Sequence record: OR539218.1 | Source: Escherichia phage vB-Eco-KMB26 | Strand: one strand, 5' to 3' | DNA length: 64,000 nucleotides | Shown here: positions 31,720-41,796 of the stretch, piece after piece | Position numbering within the stretch: position 1 is the first letter of the stretch | Layout: every line of letters begins with the position of its first letter | Translations under genes and position numbers: made by a program | Notes under the pieces: generated by a model | Database searches by the model: none | What the model saw: only the letters and a program-made list of their open reading frames with translations | What the model was told of the DNA's origin: nothing

Positions 31720-32136
31720 TTAAATGTAAATATTTTTGCCGTAATACTTATACCAGTGTGGCTTCATTAAAATTTTTTCATCGAGTCGTTGTTGACTCAA
31801 CTTAATAGCTGATTTGCATGGATTATAATCATTTTTCCATTCTACTGGAATATCGCTGATGTCAGGAACTTCAGTATCTTTTATACTGAACCCGCGTTTT
31901 AAGCATTCCGTTATAATGTCCGATTGACGCTTTCGCAAAAATTCTAACTTATCGTAAAAGAAAGTAACATGACCAGAACCTAAAATAAATTTAGAAGATA
32001 TTTTAAAATCTTTAACGCGCTTACCGTTTGCCACATGCTTACGAACTATACCAAAAACACGCGGCAATTCACGGTATTCTGCGATTAAATGTTGATCAGC
32101 AAGTTCAGATACTAAAGTCAAATTAATACGAGTCAT
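31720..32136 (-). CDS. denV: Endonuclease V (pyrimidine-dimer DNA glycosylase)
   Basis: 138 aa; [17 protein letters not shown]... matches T4 DenV. Confidence 0.92.
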
Positions 32137-32154
32137 TTTATCCCTCCAAGTAAC

Positions 32155-32191
32155 TGTGAATATACTATCACAATTCTAGGAGAAAGTAAAC
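32155..32191 (-). promoter_or_regulatory. Early promoter upstream of denV (-35 GTTTAC, -10 TAGTAT)
   Basis: Minus strand GTTTACtttctcctagaattgtgaTAGTAT. Confidence 0.5.
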
Positions 32192-32195
32192 AACT

Positions 32196-32726
<531 letters not shown>

Positions 32727-36278: not shown

Positions 36279-36408
36279 TTGTGAAAAAATTTTTTAAAAA
36301 GTTTTAGGGAATTCTAGGGCAGGGAGGGGCAATTAAAAGATAGGATAATATATTATAAAGGGTAGAAACTAAATGATGTCTAGAGAGGCCCGGAAAGGCC
36401 TAGATACC

Positions 36409-36435
36409 AAAAAGCCCCAACCTTTTGGTCGGGGC
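36409..36435 (-). terminator. Intrinsic terminator GCCCCGACC-aaaa-GGTTGGGGC + U5, downstream of the IP-like gene; near-identical to hairpin at 36964-36990
   Basis: 9-bp stem and T-run read on minus strand. Confidence 0.65.
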
Positions 36436-36443
36436 TAAGAATG

Positions 36444-36917
36444 TTATTTGATTTGTTTAGCAGACCAAATGCGGTCTTTAATAATTTTTTGGATGTCTTC
36501 AACATACTCAAGAGAGTGAACATGTGGGTTATCTTTGAAACTATAAGCACGAGCTAGCTTTTGGCCTTCAGTTTTGATTACTAAAAGCTCTTTAAGGATA
36601 GCTTCATATTTGGAGATAATTCCTTTAACAATATTTTTCTCTTGTGTGACTTTAGGATCTGCTTTAGGAGCAGGTTTACCTGAAGCCTTTGCAAAAGCAG
36701 CTCCAGTAGCAACTAAACTTTTCCAAGCCATACTAACTGCATTCCCTGTAAATCCTTCGGCTTTCATATCACGAGCAAATTGGAATCGTGATTCATCGGA
36801 AGCATCTTTATAGGAATATTTACCCGCGGCAATGGCAGCTTTTGCAACAGCTTGAATTTCAGTGCTAGATGCTTCATTTAACACCGCTTCATTTAAAAAT
36901 TGAGTATATGATTTCAT
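36444..36917 (-). CDS. Internal-protein-like gene with N-terminal capsid-targeting-like sequence MKSYTQFLNEA
   Basis: 157 aa; start resembles the T4 IP targeting sequence MKTYQEFIAE; late promoter directly upstream. Confidence 0.55.
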   Translation of the reverse strand: MKSYTQFLNEAVLNEASSTEIQAVAKAAIAAGKYSYKDASDESRFQFARDMKAEGFTGNAVSMAWKSLVATGAAFAKASGKPAPKADPKVTQEKNIVKGIISKYEAILKELLVIKTEGQKLARAYSFKDNPHVHSLEYVEDIQKIIKDRIWSAKQIK

Positions 36918-36954
36918 CTTATTTCCTGTTTTAATTCGGGGTTTTAATATACTT

Positions 36955-36962
36955 ATTTATAC
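36955..36962 (-). promoter_or_regulatory. Late promoter TATAAATA upstream of the IP-like gene
   Basis: Exact minus-strand TATAAATA about 38 nt before the ATG. Confidence 0.55.
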
Positions 36963-36963
36963 T

Positions 36964-36990
36964 AAAAAGCCCCAACCTTTCGGTCGGGGC
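36964..36990 (-). terminator. Intrinsic terminator GCCCCGACC-gaaa-GGTTGGGGC + U5 at the 3' end of the tRNA/stable-RNA transcription unit
   Basis: Second copy of the 36409-36435 hairpin. Confidence 0.65.
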
Positions 36991-37042
36991 TAAGCCTTGC
37001 GGCAACCTTGTCGGGGTTCCACCTGCTAAGGCAAGTGTTTGT

Positions 37043-37134
37043 ACGAAACGCCGGGATTCGAACCCGGTTATTAAGCAGTTGACGCTACTCAATATTTTTA
37101 AAAGGCCATATCTCGACCATATCCGAACGTTCCG
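37043..37134 (-). ncRNA. tRNA-like stable RNA candidate (acceptor-like stem plus canonical T-arm; no standard cloverleaf found)
   Basis: T-arm CCGGG-TTCGAAT-CCCGG and 7-bp terminal pairing; could not fold a standard D/anticodon arm by hand. Confidence 0.3.
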
Positions 37135-37307
37135 TCAAAAACGCTACTCGGCTTACGGCAAAGATATTTCCTCGAATCGATAATTCGGTGCGCCGTTTCT
37201 GCTGTGATATAAGGGGACATTAACAAAACATAAAGATTTATTAATACCAGTCCTTAAACAGGGAACATCAGTCCGACGACTTGCCGGTAGCGACCCGGCT
37301 TCTTGTC

Positions 37308-37383
37308 TGGTCGAGGCAGTAGGGATCGAACCTACGACCCAGGACTTAGAAGGTCCTTGCTCTTCCTTCTGAGCTATGCCTCG
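37308..37383 (-). tRNA. tRNA-Arg (anticodon UCU), CCA encoded
   Basis: Hand-folded cloverleaf: 7-bp acceptor, anticodon loop cuUCUaa, T-loop TTCGATC. Confidence 0.85.
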
Positions 37384-37387
37384 TATT

Positions 37388-37462
37388 TGGCGGACGTGAT
37401 AGGATTCGAACCTATAACCAATCGCTTAACAGGCGATCGCTCTGCCATTGAGCTACACATCC
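37388..37462 (-). tRNA. tRNA-Asn (anticodon GUU), CCA encoded
   Basis: Hand-folded cloverleaf; anticodon loop cuGUUaa. Confidence 0.8.
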
Positions 37463-37466
37463 AAAT

Positions 37467-37553
37467 TGGTGGGGAGTGGTGGAGTCGAACCACCCGAGTC
37501 GCAATGACAATGAATTTACAGTCCACACCGCTACCTCTACGGGATAACTCCCC
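37467..37553 (-). tRNA. tRNA-Tyr (anticodon GUA), long variable arm, CCA encoded
   Basis: Anticodon loop cuGUAaa; 87 nt; perfect acceptor stem. Confidence 0.7.
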
Positions 37554-37562
37554 AAATTAATT

Positions 37563-37637
37563 TGGTGGCCCTGGGTGGAATTGAACCACCATCTGGCGAT
37601 TATGAGTCGCTTGCTTGAACCTTCCAGCTACAGGGCC
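37563..37637 (-). tRNA. tRNA with CAU anticodon (most likely the AUA-reading tRNA-Ile by position; Met not excluded)
   Basis: Perfect 7-bp acceptor; anticodon loop cuCAUaa; position matches T4 tRNA-Ile. Confidence 0.7.
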
Positions 37638-37638
37638 T

Positions 37639-37714
37639 TGGTGCTGATTGACGGAATCGAACCGCCGACCTTCTCATTACAAGTGAGTTGCTCTACCTAC
37701 TGAGCTAAATCAGC
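37639..37714 (-). tRNA. tRNA-Thr (anticodon UGU)
   Basis: Hand-folded; anticodon loop cuUGUaa. Confidence 0.85.
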
Positions 37715-37719
37715 AAAAC

Positions 37720-37809
37720 TGGCGGAGGCGATAGGATTTGAACCTATGAGTCGCCGGAGCGACTGCCGGTTTTCAAGACCGGTGCATTAAACCACTCTGC
37801 CACGCCTCC
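37720..37809 (-). tRNA. tRNA-Ser (anticodon UGA), long variable arm
   Basis: 90 nt; anticodon stem CCGGU/ACCGG; loop cuUGAaa. Confidence 0.85.
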
Positions 37810-37811
37810 AG

Positions 37812-37885
37812 TCTCCGTGGCAGGATTTGAACCTACGACATTCTGCTCCCAAAGCAGACGCTCTACCAAACTGAGCTACACGGAG
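37812..37885 (-). tRNA. tRNA-Pro (anticodon UGG), no encoded CCA; abuts tRNA-Ser
   Basis: Hand-folded; anticodon loop uuUGGga. Confidence 0.85.
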
Positions 37886-37895
37886 TAAATTAAAT

Positions 37896-37969
<74 letters not shown>

Positions 37970-37974
37970 AAATT

Positions 37975-38061
37975 TGGTGCGAGAAGTGGGACTCGAACCC
38001 ACAAGGAAATCATTCCGCAGCATTTTAAGTGCTGTGCCTTTACCAATTTGGCCATTCTCGC
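37975..38061 (-). tRNA. tRNA-Leu (anticodon UAA), long variable arm
   Basis: 87 nt; anticodon stem CAGCA/UGCUG; loop cuUAAaa. Confidence 0.85.
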
Positions 38062-38062
38062 G

Positions 38063-38135
38063 CTGGGAATAAAGGACTCGAACCTTTGCATCCTGGAATC
38101 AAAATCCAGTGCCTTACCAACTTGGCTAATTCCCA
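38063..38135 (-). tRNA. tRNA-Gln (anticodon UUG), no encoded CCA; abuts tRNA-Leu
   Basis: Hand-folded; anticodon stem CUGGA/UCCAG; loop uuUUGau. Confidence 0.85.
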
Positions 38136-38204
38136 ATTATTAACAAAGGCTCTTAAGCAAGAACCCTTGATGATAGAGGGTATTAATCAGTGCGATATGA
38201 GTTA

Positions 38205-38229
38205 ATAATAACAAATAATTCTTAAAGCA
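38205..38229 (-). promoter_or_regulatory. Middle promoter for the tRNA cluster: MotA box TGCTTTA, 12-nt spacer, TATTAT
   Basis: Motif read on minus strand about 70 nt upstream of tRNA-Gln. Confidence 0.45.
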
Positions 38230-38232
38230 TAT

Positions 38233-38520
38233 TTACCATTTATAATAATACATATTTACGATGCATTCAAGACCCAAAGGATTCTTGAAAATATCATATT
38301 CAAGAGGACCTTTTTCTGTTTCAATAAAGAAATCAAAATTTACTGTATTAAATTTACGTTCTTCCTTCACTAATTTAACTTGAGAAGATGAACGGTCAAT
38401 GTAAACCTTTTCAACTTCAAAACATGTTAAAATGCCATAATCATCAATCAAGGCTTTAGCTGCTTCTTGATCATATTTATATCCATTTTCAATGGATGAT
38501 ACTTTCGCATAAAGAATCAT
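38233..38520 (-). CDS. Hypothetical protein (variable ipI-type locus)
   Basis: 95-aa ORF. Confidence 0.5.
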   Translation of the reverse strand: MILYAKVSSIENGYKYDQEAAKALIDDYGILTCFEVEKVYIDRSSSQVKLVKEERKFNTVNFDFFIETEKGPLEYDIFKNPLGLECIVNMYYYKW

Positions 38521-38522
38521 TA

Positions 38523-38921
38523 TCAGCCTTCATCAACAATAGTGTGAGTATTAGCATTTACGATTTGCCACCAATCAAAGCGATTAGAATCCATCGGTTT
38601 GTTTTCATTTTCTTTGATAATGTCACGGAGTTCATCTTCAGAGAATGCTTTAGCAATTAAATCGGTATACCCACCACGGGGATAATAATTATCACCTGCA
38701 AACAAAAGGAAATTTACCTTCCCGGAAGCAACATATGCTTCCTTAGGATACTTGTTTCCTGCGTGGTCAACCACTTCAATATAACGGTAAGGAATATCGG
38801 TTCTTTCAACCCATTGCCATGCCGCCGCAGGGGAATCGAAAGCATCTACACCTAAACGATTATCTTCATCTTTAGACGGATTATTTTCGTAATCCGCATA
38901 TACATAATATTCAACGTTCAT
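38523..38921 (-). CDS. Hypothetical acidic protein (variable ipI-type locus)
   Basis: 132-aa ORF; ATGA overlap with upstream ORF. Confidence 0.5.
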   Translation of the reverse strand: MNVEYYVYADYENNPSKDEDNRLGVDAFDSPAAAWQWVERTDIPYRYIEVVDHAGNKYPKEAYVASGKVNFLLFAGDNYYPRGGYTDLIAKAFSEDELRDIIKENENKPMDSNRFDWWQIVNANTHTIVDEG

Positions 38922-39106
38922 TATTCACCTTTAGAAATTTTATCCATAACAATAGCAATTAAACCAATTAAAAATGCTACTACAAGTGAAAAAACATTTT
39001 CTGCCGTAGTCAATAATCCGCATATAAATCCAACAAACATTGAAAAACTGAAAGCGGAAGCAGAAATTGCAATAGCAACATTTCGAATTAATTCACAACG
39101 TTTCAT
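38921..39106 (-). CDS. Small membrane protein
   Basis: 61 aa, almost entirely hydrophobic; own early promoter upstream. Confidence 0.5.
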   Translation of the reverse strand: MKRCELIRNVAIAISASAFSFSMFVGFICGLLTTAENVFSLVVAFLIGLIAIVMDKISKGE

Positions 39107-39127
39107 TTTATTCTCCTCAGTAGTAGA

Positions 39128-39164
39128 TAGGGTAATAGTATCACTACCCTATCTAAAAGTAAAC
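39128..39164 (-). promoter_or_regulatory. Early promoter (-35 GTTTAC, -10 ATACTATTAC variant)
   Basis: gatagggtaatagtatcac...gtaaac. Confidence 0.5.
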
Positions 39165-39398
39165 TTATTTTTTACGAAAAATTGATTTATTTTCTGCTGC
39201 CCATTTTTCAATAACTGCAGCAGGACCAGTAACAACAATTTTATCACCGTAATCTTCTGCGGCGAGTTGACCGAAATTATCTAATGCATCACGAAGAACT
39301 CCATGAGGCATTTCACCCATTTTATCTTTCTTGCCAGTGTAAATAAACTCAACTTTTACATCAGCAGTTTCAGCAATAAATTCTTGGTAAGTTTTCAT
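39165..39398 (-). CDS. Internal protein (IP-type) with exact capsid-targeting sequence MKTYQEFIAE (ORF track extends to 39410)
   Basis: N-terminal 10 aa identical to the T4 IP targeting sequence as recalled. Confidence 0.65.
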   Translation of the reverse strand: MKTYQEFIAETADVKVEFIYTGKKDKMGEMPHGVLRDALDNFGQLAAEDYGDKIVVTGPAAVIEKWAAENKSIFRKK

Positions 39399-39424
39399 TT
39401 TGATTTCCATTTGGTTTTGTTTTG

Positions 39425-39462
39425 ATAGGGTAATAGTATCACAACTAAAACCCTATGTAAAC
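39425..39462 (-). promoter_or_regulatory. Early promoter (-35 GTTTAC, -10 ATACTATTAC variant)
   Basis: gatagggtaatagtatcac...gtaaac. Confidence 0.5.
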
Positions 39463-39474
39463 AACTTTGTGAAA

Positions 39475-39732
39475 TTATTTTAAATCTTCTAATCGTTTCT
39501 TCATCTTAGAGCCATTTTTAGCAATTTCTCCTGCATCGGAGCATAATGCTAAAAGTGCTTTAACTTTAGTTTGGTCTCCTTTAAAAGATGAAGGATCGAC
39601 CGCAGCAGCAAGTTCTTTAATACGAGAGAAAAGACGCTCAGCTTCAGCTAAAGCCATTCCAAGCTTTACTTCCATACCGTGGGAAGATTCAGTAATAGTA
39701 GTTTTTGTAGCAAACTCTTTGAAAGTTTTCAT
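39475..39732 (-). CDS. Internal-protein-like protein with targeting-like N-terminus MKTFKEFATK
   Basis: 85 aa; N-terminus resembles MKTYQEFIAE. Confidence 0.55.
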   Translation of the reverse strand: MKTFKEFATKTTITESSHGMEVKLGMALAEAERLFSRIKELAAAVDPSSFKGDQTKVKALLALCSDAGEIAKNGSKMKKRLEDLK

Positions 39733-39755
39733 TTTTATTTTCCTAATTAATTTTG

Positions 39756-39793
39756 ATGTGGTAATAGTATCACTACCTCATCAGTATGTAAAC
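39756..39793 (-). promoter_or_regulatory. Early promoter (-35 GTTTAC, -10 ATACTATTAC variant)
   Basis: gtggtaatagtatcac...gtaaac. Confidence 0.5.
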
Positions 39794-39805
39794 AACTTTG
39801 TGAAA

Positions 39806-40490
<685 letters not shown>

Positions 40491-40491
<1 letters not shown>

Positions 40492-41216
40492 TATAGTACC
40501 TTTAGTGTATTTTTAATTTTAGAAAAAAGTTCTTCAAGAGAACCATCGTTTGTAATTACTAAATCGCCATCACGAATTGGCAATCCAGCTTCTGTAATAT
40601 GTGTATCATTGGATTTTTGACCAGGACGAACTACATGAATTACTGTAGCACCCATCGCCCTAGCCGCATCCATTTCATGATCTTGACGGGTATCAGGAAC
40701 GATATAATAATCATAACCTGAGTTAAATTTATCAAGATAATCTAAAGCAAATAATTTTACCCAGTACATGCGGTCGAAGTTATTAACAATCAAATCCGTA
40801 CCTAGGGCTTGCATCAGACGACGGACTGACCATTGATCTTCAATATTATTTATAACGTCAATAATCTTGTTAAATGCTACGGAATTAACTGATTCTTGTC
40901 CTTCGTCATCAAAAACAAACACACCTTTAATTGGGCTTTTACCATTAAGATAGCAAAATGCTTGTTCCATAATCGTGATTACTTCTAATTTAGTTAGATT
41001 TAAATTAGTCTCACGATCATAGTCAATTCCTTCAAACTCTTTACGAGTTAAGCAAGGATAGTCGGTATTTGCAGCAAATACTCCCCATGCATAAGCCAAT
41101 GCATCCTTAATAGGACCAGCAAGTTGGTATTTAACTGCAGAATAATTGCTCATGATAAAATCAGCAGTAGTATCTTTTCCACTACGCTTTACACCGCTTA
41201 AAAAGATTAGTTTCAT
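40491..41216 (-). CDS. 1: Deoxynucleoside monophosphate kinase gp1
   Basis: 241 aa; P-loop GVKRSGKDT. Confidence 0.9.
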
Positions 41217-41265
41217 ATGTTTCTCCTCAAATTTAGTTAAGATTATAACACATGAAACTGAAGCA

Positions 41266-41796
41266 TTAAACTTCTGCTATAATTTTACCATCTTTTTCTA
41301 CTTGAAAATAGGTGTAAGGAATCGTTGCTGTACATACTAAAGCCGGGTCTGAATCTTCCGTGTAGCTAAATTCTACTTCAGATAGGTCAGAAACCCAAGG
41401 CTTATAAAAATTTATTGACATCACGATTTCAGTTTTACTATTATCTAAAATGTAAAGCGTAATGTATTCAGGACCTGTTTTTTGGGCAGTATTTTCGCCT
41501 GTAAGATAGTTACTAGTTCCTAGCATCCATTCATACATTCCTATCCACGACTTAAGCTCTTCGTCAACTATAAATCTCACGATGAGTGGATCGTACTCAA
41601 ATGTAACACCTGGACGTTGTGCTCGACCAAGTCCAAACGGCCCAGTCACGGTATCAGTAACAGGTATTCTAATTCCTGGAATAGGAACTGACTGAGCATT
41701 TAAAGTAAAAGCAGATGTAGTATTACTATGTGGTATTGATACTACAAAGTTAGTTGTATTTGCTTGGTTAAAAATTTGTTGCAGAGCTTGCGACAT
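41266..41796 (-). CDS. 3: Tail completion/sheath stabiliser gp3 (ORF track extends to 41880)
   Basis: 176 aa from MSQALQQIF; position between genes 1 and 2. Confidence 0.7.
   Translation of the reverse strand: MSQALQQIFNQANTTNFVVSIPHSNTTSAFTLNAQSVPIPGIRIPVTDTVTGPFGLGRAQRPGVTFEYDPLIVRFIVDEELKSWIGMYEWMLGTSNYLTGENTAQKTGPEYITLYILDNSKTEIVMSINFYKPWVSDLSEVEFSYTEDSDPALVCTATIPYTYFQVEKDGKIIAEV

What the first reader, a model, noticed from the sequence alone, without database searches (positions are those of the whole stretch)
38233..39805. Hypervariable ipI-type locus with two capsid-targeting-sequence proteins, each behind its own early promoter
Between the tRNA cluster and 57B lie five small ORFs. 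Two begin with the T4 internal-protein capsid targeting sequence (MKTYQEFIAE exactly at 39398; MKTFKEFATK at 39732). T4 IPI* is packaged, injected with the DNA and disarms the GmrSD restriction system, and this locus is known to vary among T-even phages. The cargo domains here did not look like T4 IPI by eye, so they may be injected inhibitors of other host defences. Three of the genes carry their own copy of the repeated early promoter, suggesting independent modular acquisition.
Basis: partly seen in the sequence, partly recalled or inferred. Interest (0 to 1): 0.75.

Follow-up and report, generated by a model that had tools for sequence, protein, structure and literature searches.

The report
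Known T6-type ip5/ip6 injected-protein locus
This is the long-known variable "internal protein" locus of a T4-like phage, carrying the already named genes ip5 and ip6 exactly as in phage T6; Ip6 was recently shown to be an injected inhibitor of the host McrBC restriction enzyme, and only the target of Ip5 is still open.

Summary
On the minus strand, between 57B (Acb1) and the tRNA cluster, lie five small genes. Two of them start with the T4 capsid targeting sequence. Three carry a copy of a repeated early promoter with a stem-loop.

It is not new. The window is 99.7% identical to many Tequatrovirus genomes. The two genes are Ip5 and Ip6, named by Repoila et al. in 1994. Phage T6 has the same layout, 57B-ip5-ip6-trna.4. 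The other three ORFs are the conserved T4 genes trna.4, trna.3 and trna.2. Only ipI has been swapped for ip5+ip6.

Both cargo domains are unrelated to T4 IPI, IPII and IPIII, and homologs were found only in T4-like (Tevenvirinae) phage records and contigs. Ip6 is 100% identical to Bas37_0260. A 2025 preprint reports that deleting that gene makes the phage specifically sensitive to McrBC. Ip5 is 100% identical to Bas37_0261, whose target is unknown. That preprint's own table shows a CFT073-specific fitness defect for it, which the authors did not follow up. CFT073 carries GmrSD-family genes where K-12 has mcrBC.

The promoter/stem-loop repeats are the PeSL-like shuffling elements already described for IP loci.

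In passing: a 157-aa ORF with a targeting-sequence-like start, annotated only as hypothetical, sits behind a late promoter beyond the tRNA genes.

The parts
39806..40264 (-). 57B = Acb1 (anti-CBASS phosphodiesterase). Conserved upstream flank of the locus.
   Evidence: Pfam PF23474 Acb1, 6.1e-60. 96.8% DNA identity to T4 across gene 1, 57A and 57B.
39764..39792 (-). Early promoter P1 upstream of ip5 (TTTACA-N17-TACTAT, TG-extended). It lies inside repeat copy 39751-39821; the stem-loop is at 39754-39783.
   Evidence: fold -12 kcal/mol, z -2.6. Nearly identical to the T4 promoter upstream of ipI.
39475..39732 (-). ip5: 85-aa internal protein. Extended leader MKTFKEFATKTTITE|S, with the predicted prohead-protease cut after Glu15. 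Predicted mature form is 70 aa with pI 9.2.
   Evidence: phrog_3499 'internal head protein', 1e-49. UniRef names it Ip5 of RB70 and T2. 100% identical to Bas37_0261. ITE|S is invariant in the alignment. Modelled as a helical hairpin, pLDDT 71.
39433..39461 (-). Early promoter P2 upstream of ip6. It lies inside repeat copy 39420-39490; the stem-loop is at 39425-39456.
   Evidence: -18.1 kcal/mol, z -4.5. Its 5' half matches the T4 promoter upstream of trna.4.
39165..39398 (-). ip6: 77-aa internal protein. Leader MKTYQEFIAE|T, with the predicted cut after Glu10. Predicted mature form is 67 aa with pI 6.5. Reported McrBC inhibitor.
   Evidence: phrog_8111 'internal virion protein', 1e-52. 100% identical to Bas37_0260, whose deletion is specifically McrBC-sensitive. 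Modelled as an alpha/beta fold, pLDDT 79.5.
39135..39163 (-). Early promoter P3 upstream of trna.4 (TTTACT-N17-TACTAT). It lies inside repeat copy 39122-39192; the stem-loop is at 39124-39155.
   Evidence: -18.5 kcal/mol, z -4.6. Homology to T4 resumes at 39144, inside the -10/stem core.
38921..39106 (-). trna.4: conserved 61-aa hydrophobic (putative membrane) protein. Not part of the variable cassette array.
   Evidence: Annotated as Trna.4 in fFiEco06 and as 'putative membrane protein; Trna.4' in T6; same position in T4. phrog_1692.
38523..38921 (-). trna.3: conserved 132-aa protein of unknown function. Its start overlaps the trna.4 stop.
   Evidence: phrog_1411.
38233..38520 (-). trna.2: conserved 95-aa protein of unknown function.
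   Evidence: phrog_2023.
39145..39697 (-). The segment that differs from T4: ip5 cargo, P2 and ip6. T4 has the ipI cargo and one promoter here.
   Evidence: blastn of the window against T4: homology covers 37618-39144 and 39698-41300 only.

Best explanation
This is the ipI-type internal-protein locus of a T6-like Tequatrovirus. It carries the known genes ip5 and ip6 in place of T4 ipI.

How it most likely works, with the basis of each step:
1. Each gene sits behind a T4-type early promoter that overlaps a stem-loop (shown here).
2. Late transcription could read through from a late-promoter consensus (TATAAATA) inside gene 1 at 40847-40854 (inferred).
3. The N-terminal capsid targeting sequence brings the protein into the scaffolding core of the prohead (established for T4 internal proteins; inferred here).
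4. The prohead protease gp21 removes the leader after Glu10 in Ip6 (IAE|T) and after Glu15 in Ip5 (ITE|S) (inferred from the motif).
5. Many copies of the small mature protein are packed with the DNA and injected with it. They therefore act before any phage gene is expressed (inferred by analogy with IPI*).
6. Ip6 neutralises McrBC, the Type IV restriction enzyme of E. coli K-12. This rests on the published genetics of an identical protein.
7. Ip5 most likely neutralises another modification-dependent (Type IV) enzyme that is present in some strains, such as CFT073 (inferred; unproven).

The array is built and reshuffled by homologous recombination between two kinds of repeat: the promoter/stem-loop repeats and the leader-coding sequences.
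For: Identity and layout:
- 99.3-99.7% DNA identity over the whole locus to many Tequatrovirus genomes, several of which annotate ip5 and ip6 there.
- Same gene order as T6.
- T4 has ipI in the same slot.

Targeting sequence and cleavage motif.

Cargos:
- Unrelated to T4 IPI, IPII and IPIII.
- No homologs outside T4-like phages. Word-index searches found 5 clusters for Ip5 and 11 for Ip6.
- An exhaustive HMMER search of 1.84 billion representatives with the Ip6 cargo found 2 real hits.

Function:
- Ip6 is 100% identical to Bas37_0260. Insertions in that gene drop from mean 309 to 8 on BW25113 (log2FC 5.0, adjusted p 0). The clean deletion is specifically McrBC-sensitive.
- Ip5 is 100% identical to Bas37_0261. 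Its insertions are depleted on CFT073 (log2FC -2.09, adjusted p 0) but not on CFE299 (-0.01).
- Ip1, Ip2 and Ip3 each inhibit a distinct GmrSD enzyme (PMC12373910).

Recombination joints: homology to T4 breaks at 39144, inside the invariant core GTGATACTATTACC, and resumes at 39698, the end of the leader. Published model: PMC2839356 and PMC4122927.
Against: - Nothing here shows that Ip5 or Ip6 are in virions, are cleaved, or are injected. No proteomic data were found.
- The McrBC result is from a preprint and is genetic. It does not prove direct binding.
- ip4-10 expressed in trans showed no reproducible inhibition of the GmrSD variants tested (PMC12373910, Supplementary Fig. 9). That these include this Ip5 and Ip6 is inferred from the names only.
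- The UTI89 GmrSD enzyme restricts T2 (which has Ip5) and T6 (which has both) (PMC4437046).
- No late promoter lies directly upstream of either gene.
Confidence: 0.85

Rival explanations
1. Ip5 and Ip6 are mainly structural counter-ions or DNA-condensing proteins of the head, with no specific anti-defence target.
For: Mature Ip5 is basic (pI 9.2, net +3), like IPI*, IPII* and IPIII*. Lysines of T4 internal proteins contact DNA phosphates (PMC3012670). This phage lacks ipII and ipIII, so Ip5 and Ip6 would be among the few internal proteins left to fill that role.
Against: Mature Ip6 has no net charge (pI 6.5). Both genes are non-essential on K-12 deltaRM. The Ip6 defect appears only when McrBC is present. 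The Ip5 defect is strain-specific. Cargo diversity (18 families among 60 proteins) fits an arms race better than a generic packing role.
Confidence: 0.1
2. The CFT073 phenotype of ip5 is not due to Ip5 itself. It would reflect a local effect of transposon insertions on the neighbouring 57B/Acb1 gene or on ip6, or noise.
For: 57B/Acb1, immediately upstream, is also depleted on CFT073 (log2FC -1.56, adjusted p 0.003). The authors did not report or validate the ip5 effect. Only one of the two clinical strains whose ip5 values I read shows it.
Against: ip5 is downstream of 57B, so insertions in ip5 cannot be polar on 57B. The reverse is possible: 57B insertions could be polar on ip5. ip6 has its own promoter, and its insertions are not depleted on CFT073. 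The ip5 effect rests on 17 TA sites and has adjusted p below 1e-5.
Confidence: 0.3
3. The stem-loops in the promoter repeats act mainly as regulatory RNA or DNA structures, such as attenuators of read-through transcription or protein binding sites, rather than as recombination substrates.
For: All five copies compared (three in the window, two in T4) fold stably. The stems differ in sequence but keep pairing: TGATGAGGTA, ATAGGGT and AGATAGGGTA. The PeSL stem-loops of RB49 are effective terminators (PMC2839356, abstract listed).
Against: No T-run follows the stems, and the terminator scan did not list them. The breakpoints relative to T4 fall exactly inside the element. The two roles are not mutually exclusive.
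Confidence: 0.3

Closest known systems
Ip5 and Ip6 of T-even phages (Repoila et al. 1994, EMBO J 13:4181), as in T6, RB51, RB14 and RB70
   Same: Same proteins. Ip5 cargo is at least 99% identical in 231 phage records, including RB3, RB14 and RB51; T2 is 98.6% identical. Ip6 cargo is at least 99% identical in 113 records; T6 is 98.5% identical. Same position and order as in T6.
   Different: Nothing of substance. There are a few nucleotide differences, 99.7% identity to the closest records.
Bas37_0260 of phage KarlGJung (Bas37), an injected inhibitor of McrBC (bioRxiv 10.1101/2025.11.20.689424)
   Same: 100% amino-acid identity to the window's Ip6, in the same locus.
   Different: None at protein level. 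The preprint does not use the name Ip6.
T4 IPI* (inhibitor of GmrSD from E. coli CT596), and IPII and IPIII (inhibitors of GmrSD from ECOR21 and ECOR17)
   Same: Same genomic slot as ipI. Same targeting sequence and cleavage logic. Ip5 shares IPI's extended Thr-rich leader ending in ITE. Small mature size. Same role as an injected first-response anti-restriction protein.
   Different: Cargo sequences are unrelated. The predicted folds do not retrieve IPI*. The Ip6 target is McrBC, not a GmrSD-family enzyme.
PeSL (promoter-early stem-loop) shuffling cassettes of T4-type phages (Arbiol 2010, PMC2839356; Comeau 2014, PMC4122927)
   Same: An early promoter plus a stem-loop flanks variable ORFs. 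The sequence fits the published PST/T4 consensus TTTACW-N17-TAYWAT. Breakpoints lie inside the element.
   Different: The authors call the IP-locus elements analogs of PeSLs, not homologs. They are based on T4 early promoters and have weaker, AT-rich stems without a T-run.

Membership tests
T-even internal proteins (CTS-bearing head proteins) | N-terminal capsid targeting sequence, consensus MKTY/F-Q/K-EF-I/L-x-E | tested here: met
   Ip6 starts MKTYQEFIAE, identical to T4 IPII and IPIII. Ip5 starts MKTFKEF, identical to T4 IPI residues 1-7. Consensus taken from 60 proteins.
T-even internal proteins (CTS-bearing head proteins) | gp21 prohead-protease site, (L/I)-x-E followed by a small residue, at the end of the leader | tested here: met
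   IAE|T at residue 10 of Ip6 and ITE|S at residue 15 of Ip5. Both are conserved in the homolog alignments. Cleavage itself was not tested.
T-even internal proteins (CTS-bearing head proteins) | Encoded in one of the two polymorphic IP loci (57B/tRNA or e/denV) | tested here: met
   Located between 57B and trna.4, exactly where T4 has ipI.
T-even internal proteins (CTS-bearing head proteins) | Present in mature virions in processed form and injected with the DNA | not testable with these tools
   No virion proteomics for Ip5 or Ip6 was found in the library. This needs mass spectrometry.
Injected Type IV restriction inhibitors (IPI*-like function) | Loss of the gene makes the phage sensitive to a defined modification-dependent nuclease | tested here: inconclusive
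For Ip6 the criterion is met in the literature by an identical protein, with McrBC as the nuclease. For Ip5 there is only a CFT073-specific fitness defect in a screen.
T4 IPI / IPII / IPIII sequence families | Detectable sequence similarity of the mature domain | tested here: not met
   BLASTP of the mature parts finds no hit with E below 3 to IPI*, IPII* or IPIII*. The PHROG families are distinct.
PeSL-like promoter/stem-loop shuffling elements | An early promoter overlapping or adjoining a stem-loop, repeated at the borders of variable ORFs, with rearrangement breakpoints inside it | tested here: met
   Three copies, promoters, stable folds, mosaic alignment with the T4 copies, breakpoint at 39144. 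Terminator activity was not tested.

The most novel reading that the evidence does not exclude
Ip5 is an injected inhibitor of a GmrSD-family (DUF262/DUF1524) Type IV restriction enzyme encoded in the immigration control region of strains such as CFT073. In those strains the enzyme occupies the place that McrBC holds in K-12. A T6-type phage would then carry a matched pair: Ip6 against McrBC and Ip5 against the alternative allele of the same host locus.

Separately, the 157-aa ORF at 36444-36917 would be a late-expressed internal protein at a third locus that has not been recognised.
Probability: 0.3. Interest if true: 0.45.

Novelty: already known. Interest (0 to 1): 0.18.

Why it matters
As a finding it matters little. 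The locus, the gene names, the targeting sequence, the shuffling elements and now the function of Ip6 are all published.

Two things remain of value. The first is a concrete, cheap experiment for the target of Ip5: an ip5 deletion plated on CFT073 with and without its GmrSD-family genes. The second is a candidate additional internal protein (orf157) that annotation pipelines call hypothetical in about 500 phage genomes. Both bear on predicting the host range of therapeutic T4-like phages.

Tried and rejected
- Pfam and NCBIfam gave nothing for Ip5, Ip6, trna.2-4 or orf157.
- The exhaustive HMMER search with the Ip6 cargo found one apparent distant hit, P0018 (491 aa, 5 stretches). It is an NHL-repeat protein, and the match is a repeat-inflated artefact on the motif DKDKSGELNHPSGV. 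I rejected it.
- Repoila 1994, Bair 2007 and Rifat 2008 are not held in the library. Their content is cited only through papers that quote them.
- One literature search was wasted on inositol phosphates, which share the abbreviations IP5 and IP6.
- I could not confirm from sequences that the ip5 and ip6 tested in PMC12373910 are these proteins. The sequences are not in the held supplements.
- I looked for a late promoter directly upstream of ip5 or ip6 and found none.
- In the 33 related loci, only 18 of 55 targeting-sequence ORFs (20 of 57 with the window's own two) have a strict early-promoter match within 110 nt. So 'each gene behind its own promoter' is not a general rule of the locus.

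Full report
**What is there.** The window comes from a T4-like phage (Tequatrovirus), and the finding lies on the minus strand. In the direction of transcription the order is as follows:
- gene 1 (40491-41216), 57A (40261-40491) and 57B (39806-40264; Pfam Acb1, 6e-60);
- an 85-aa ORF (39475-39732, MKTFKEFATK...) and a 77-aa ORF (39165-39398, MKTYQEFIAE...);
- ORFs of 61, 132 and 95 aa (38921-39106, 38523-38921, 38233-38520);
- ten tRNA genes (37308-38135).

**Promoter repeats.** A 71-nt direct repeat occurs three times, upstream of the 85-aa, 77-aa and 61-aa ORFs. Each copy holds TTTAC(A/T)-N17-TACTAT with a TG-extended -10 element (the third copy was read). Each copy also has a stem-loop around the -10 element that folds better than shuffled sequence, with z-scores of -2.6 to -4.6.

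**Identity.** The 1.7-kb locus is 99.3-99.7% identical over its full length to many Tequatrovirus genomes. Several of these annotate the two leader-bearing genes as ip5 and ip6 and the other three as Trna.4, Trna.3 and Trna.2.
- T4 has the same order with a single gene, ipI, in place of ip5+ip6.
- T6 has exactly the layout seen here, with notes reading 'Ip5 ... replaces ipI' and 'Ip6'.
- T2 has Ip5 followed by a different 102-aa internal protein.
- UniRef names the 85-aa protein Ip5 of RB70 and T2.

These names go back to Repoila et al. 1994. I could not read that paper. It is quoted for exactly this content by PMC3012670, PMC12373910, PMC2839356 and PMC4122927.

**Is it hypervariable, and is the leader more than chance?** I fetched 36 viral-contig loci that encode a 57B relative and listed the ORFs between 57B and trna.4.
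- In 34 loci, counting the window, the interval holds 0-4 leader-bearing ORFs, 57 in all.
- With T4's three internal proteins added, the 60 proteins fall into 18 unrelated cargo families.
- 54 of the 60 have Glu at position 10.
- Ip5 and IPI are the exceptions. They have an extended Thr-rich leader ending in ITE, at Glu15 and Glu19 respectively.
- The Ip6-type cargo is the commonest family (13 members), with relatives down to about 25-32% identity.
- Only 20 of the 57 ORFs (18 of 55 without the window's own two) have a strict early-promoter match within 110 nt. So 'each gene behind its own promoter' holds here and in T4 but not everywhere.

**The cargos.**
- Mature Ip5 (70 aa, pI 9.2) and mature Ip6 (67 aa, pI 6.5) show no similarity to IPI*, IPII* or IPIII*.
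- Neither matches Pfam or NCBIfam, and neither has a solved relative.
- Word-index searches of 5.8 billion proteins found only close relatives.
- An exhaustive HMMER search of 1.84 billion representatives with the Ip6 cargo found two real hits and one NHL-repeat artefact.
- tblastn of the phage collection finds the Ip5 cargo in 494 records. About half are RB69-like phages at about 54% identity. It finds the Ip6 cargo in 230 records.
- AlphaFold models give a helical hairpin for Ip5 (pLDDT 71) and a small alpha/beta sandwich for Ip6 (pLDDT 79.5).
- Fold searches return only generic matches. The folds say nothing about mechanism.

**Function from the literature.** Silas et al. 2025 (PMC12373910) show that Ip1, Ip2 and Ip3 of T4 each inhibit one specific GmrSD-type Type IV restriction enzyme. 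They found no reproducible interaction between 'ip4-10' and the further GmrSD variants they tested.

A preprint of November 2025 (bioRxiv 10.1101/2025.11.20.689424) reports a gene in phage Bas37, bas37_0260, 'at the same locus as ipI'. Its disruption is strongly deleterious on K-12 BW25113 but not on a strain that lacks the Type IV systems. Its deletion is specifically McrBC-sensitive.

Bas37 is phage KarlGJung, MZ501089. In that record bas37_0260 is the 77-aa gene between trna.4 and the 85-aa gene. The window's Ip6 and Ip5 are 100% identical to Bas37_0260 and Bas37_0261. Ip6 is therefore an already reported injected anti-McrBC protein, although the preprint does not use the name Ip6.

**A lead for Ip5.** The lead comes from the preprint's own Extended Data Table 7.
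- Insertions in bas37_0261 fall from a mean of 263 on BW25113 to 61 on the uropathogenic strain CFT073 (log2FC -2.09, adjusted p below 1e-5, 17 sites).
- They are unchanged on CFE299 (log2FC -0.01).
- The authors tested only SanaTA from CFT073 and do not mention this effect.
- The RefSeq annotation of CFT073 shows GmrSD-family genes next to symE, where K-12 has mcrBC, and a further DUF262 protein next to hsdR.
- He et al. 2015 list c5421 as a CFT073 GmrSD homolog.

Ip5 may therefore inhibit such an enzyme. This is an inference from one screen and from the family trend, nothing more. The prophage GmrSD of UTI89 restricts T2 and T6, so it is not the target of Ip5 or Ip6.

**How the array is built.** Alignment of the three window promoter elements with the two T4 elements shows a mosaic.
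- The element upstream of ip5 equals the T4 element upstream of ipI.
- The element upstream of ip6 equals the 5' half of the T4 element upstream of trna.4.
- The element upstream of the window's trna.4 shares only the -10/stem core and the 3' leader with it.

blastn against T4 places the breakpoints at 39144, inside the invariant core GTGATACTATTACC, and at 39698, which is codon 12 of ip5 and the end of the leader. The repeat also reaches 15 nt into the upstream ORFs, so 57B and Ip5 both end in DLK. This is what the PeSL-like recombination model predicts. That model was proposed for the IP loci in PMC2839356 and PMC4122927, whose consensus TTTACW-N17-TAYWAT fits these promoters.

**Seen in passing.**
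- The second IP locus, between e and denV, is empty in this phage. It holds one promoter/stem-loop and no ipII or ipIII.
- Beyond the tRNA genes, a 157-aa ORF (36444-36917) starts MKSYTQFLNE|A, and its homologs start MKTYNEFL(T/N)E.
- That ORF sits 36 nt downstream of a perfect T4 late promoter, TATAAATA at 36954-36961.
- It is an insertion relative to T4, bounded by a duplicated 36-nt terminator.
- It occurs in 511 phage records, and in every record listed it is annotated 'hypothetical protein'.
- It looks like an internal protein at a third locus. That runs against the remark in PMC2839356 that IP genes are absent elsewhere.

**Verdict.** What remains is a testable target hypothesis for Ip5 and a candidate extra internal protein.

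Noticed in passing
window 36444-36917 (-), with flanks 36404-36439 and 36954-36994: A 157-aa ORF with a targeting-sequence-like start, MKSYTQFLNE|A; its homologs start MKTYNEFL(T/N)E. It lies directly behind a T4 late promoter, TATAAATA (36954-36961). The cassette is an insertion relative to T4 and is bounded by a duplicated 36-nt terminator. It occurs in 511 phage records, and every record listed annotates it as hypothetical. It is a candidate internal protein at a third locus.
   Followed up: partly
window 32137-32195 (gap between e at 32196-32690 and denV at 31720-32136): The second T-even internal-protein locus is empty. It holds a single early promoter with a stem-loop and no ipII or ipIII. 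Ip5, Ip6 and perhaps orf157 are therefore the only leader-bearing proteins found in this window.
   Followed up: partly
bioRxiv 10.1101/2025.11.20.689424, Extended Data Table 7; window ip5 at 39475-39732: The identical gene bas37_0261 is significantly depleted on E. coli CFT073 (log2FC -2.09) but not on CFE299. The authors did not follow this up. CFT073 has GmrSD-family genes at NC_004431 5162679-5164772 and 5171396-5173048, where K-12 has mcrBC.
   Followed up: partly
window 39806-39821 and 39475-39490: The 71-nt promoter repeat extends about 15 nt into the 3' end of the upstream ORF, so 57B and Ip5 share the C-terminus DLK*. This is a recombination scar.
   Followed up: yes
window 36995-37307: Homologs of the T4 stable RNAs rnaC and rnaD lie here (89% identity to T4). 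Rfam has no family for them. The closest annotated genome, fFiEco06, places two small 'hypothetical protein' CDS over this stretch, and these are probably spurious.
   Followed up: partly
window 39399-39410: The longest ip6 ORF starts four codons upstream (MEIK-MKTYQEF), and many database entries use that start (81 aa). The ATG at 39398 has the better-placed GGA Shine-Dalgarno sequence and puts the targeting sequence at the N-terminus, so it is the likelier start.
   Followed up: partly
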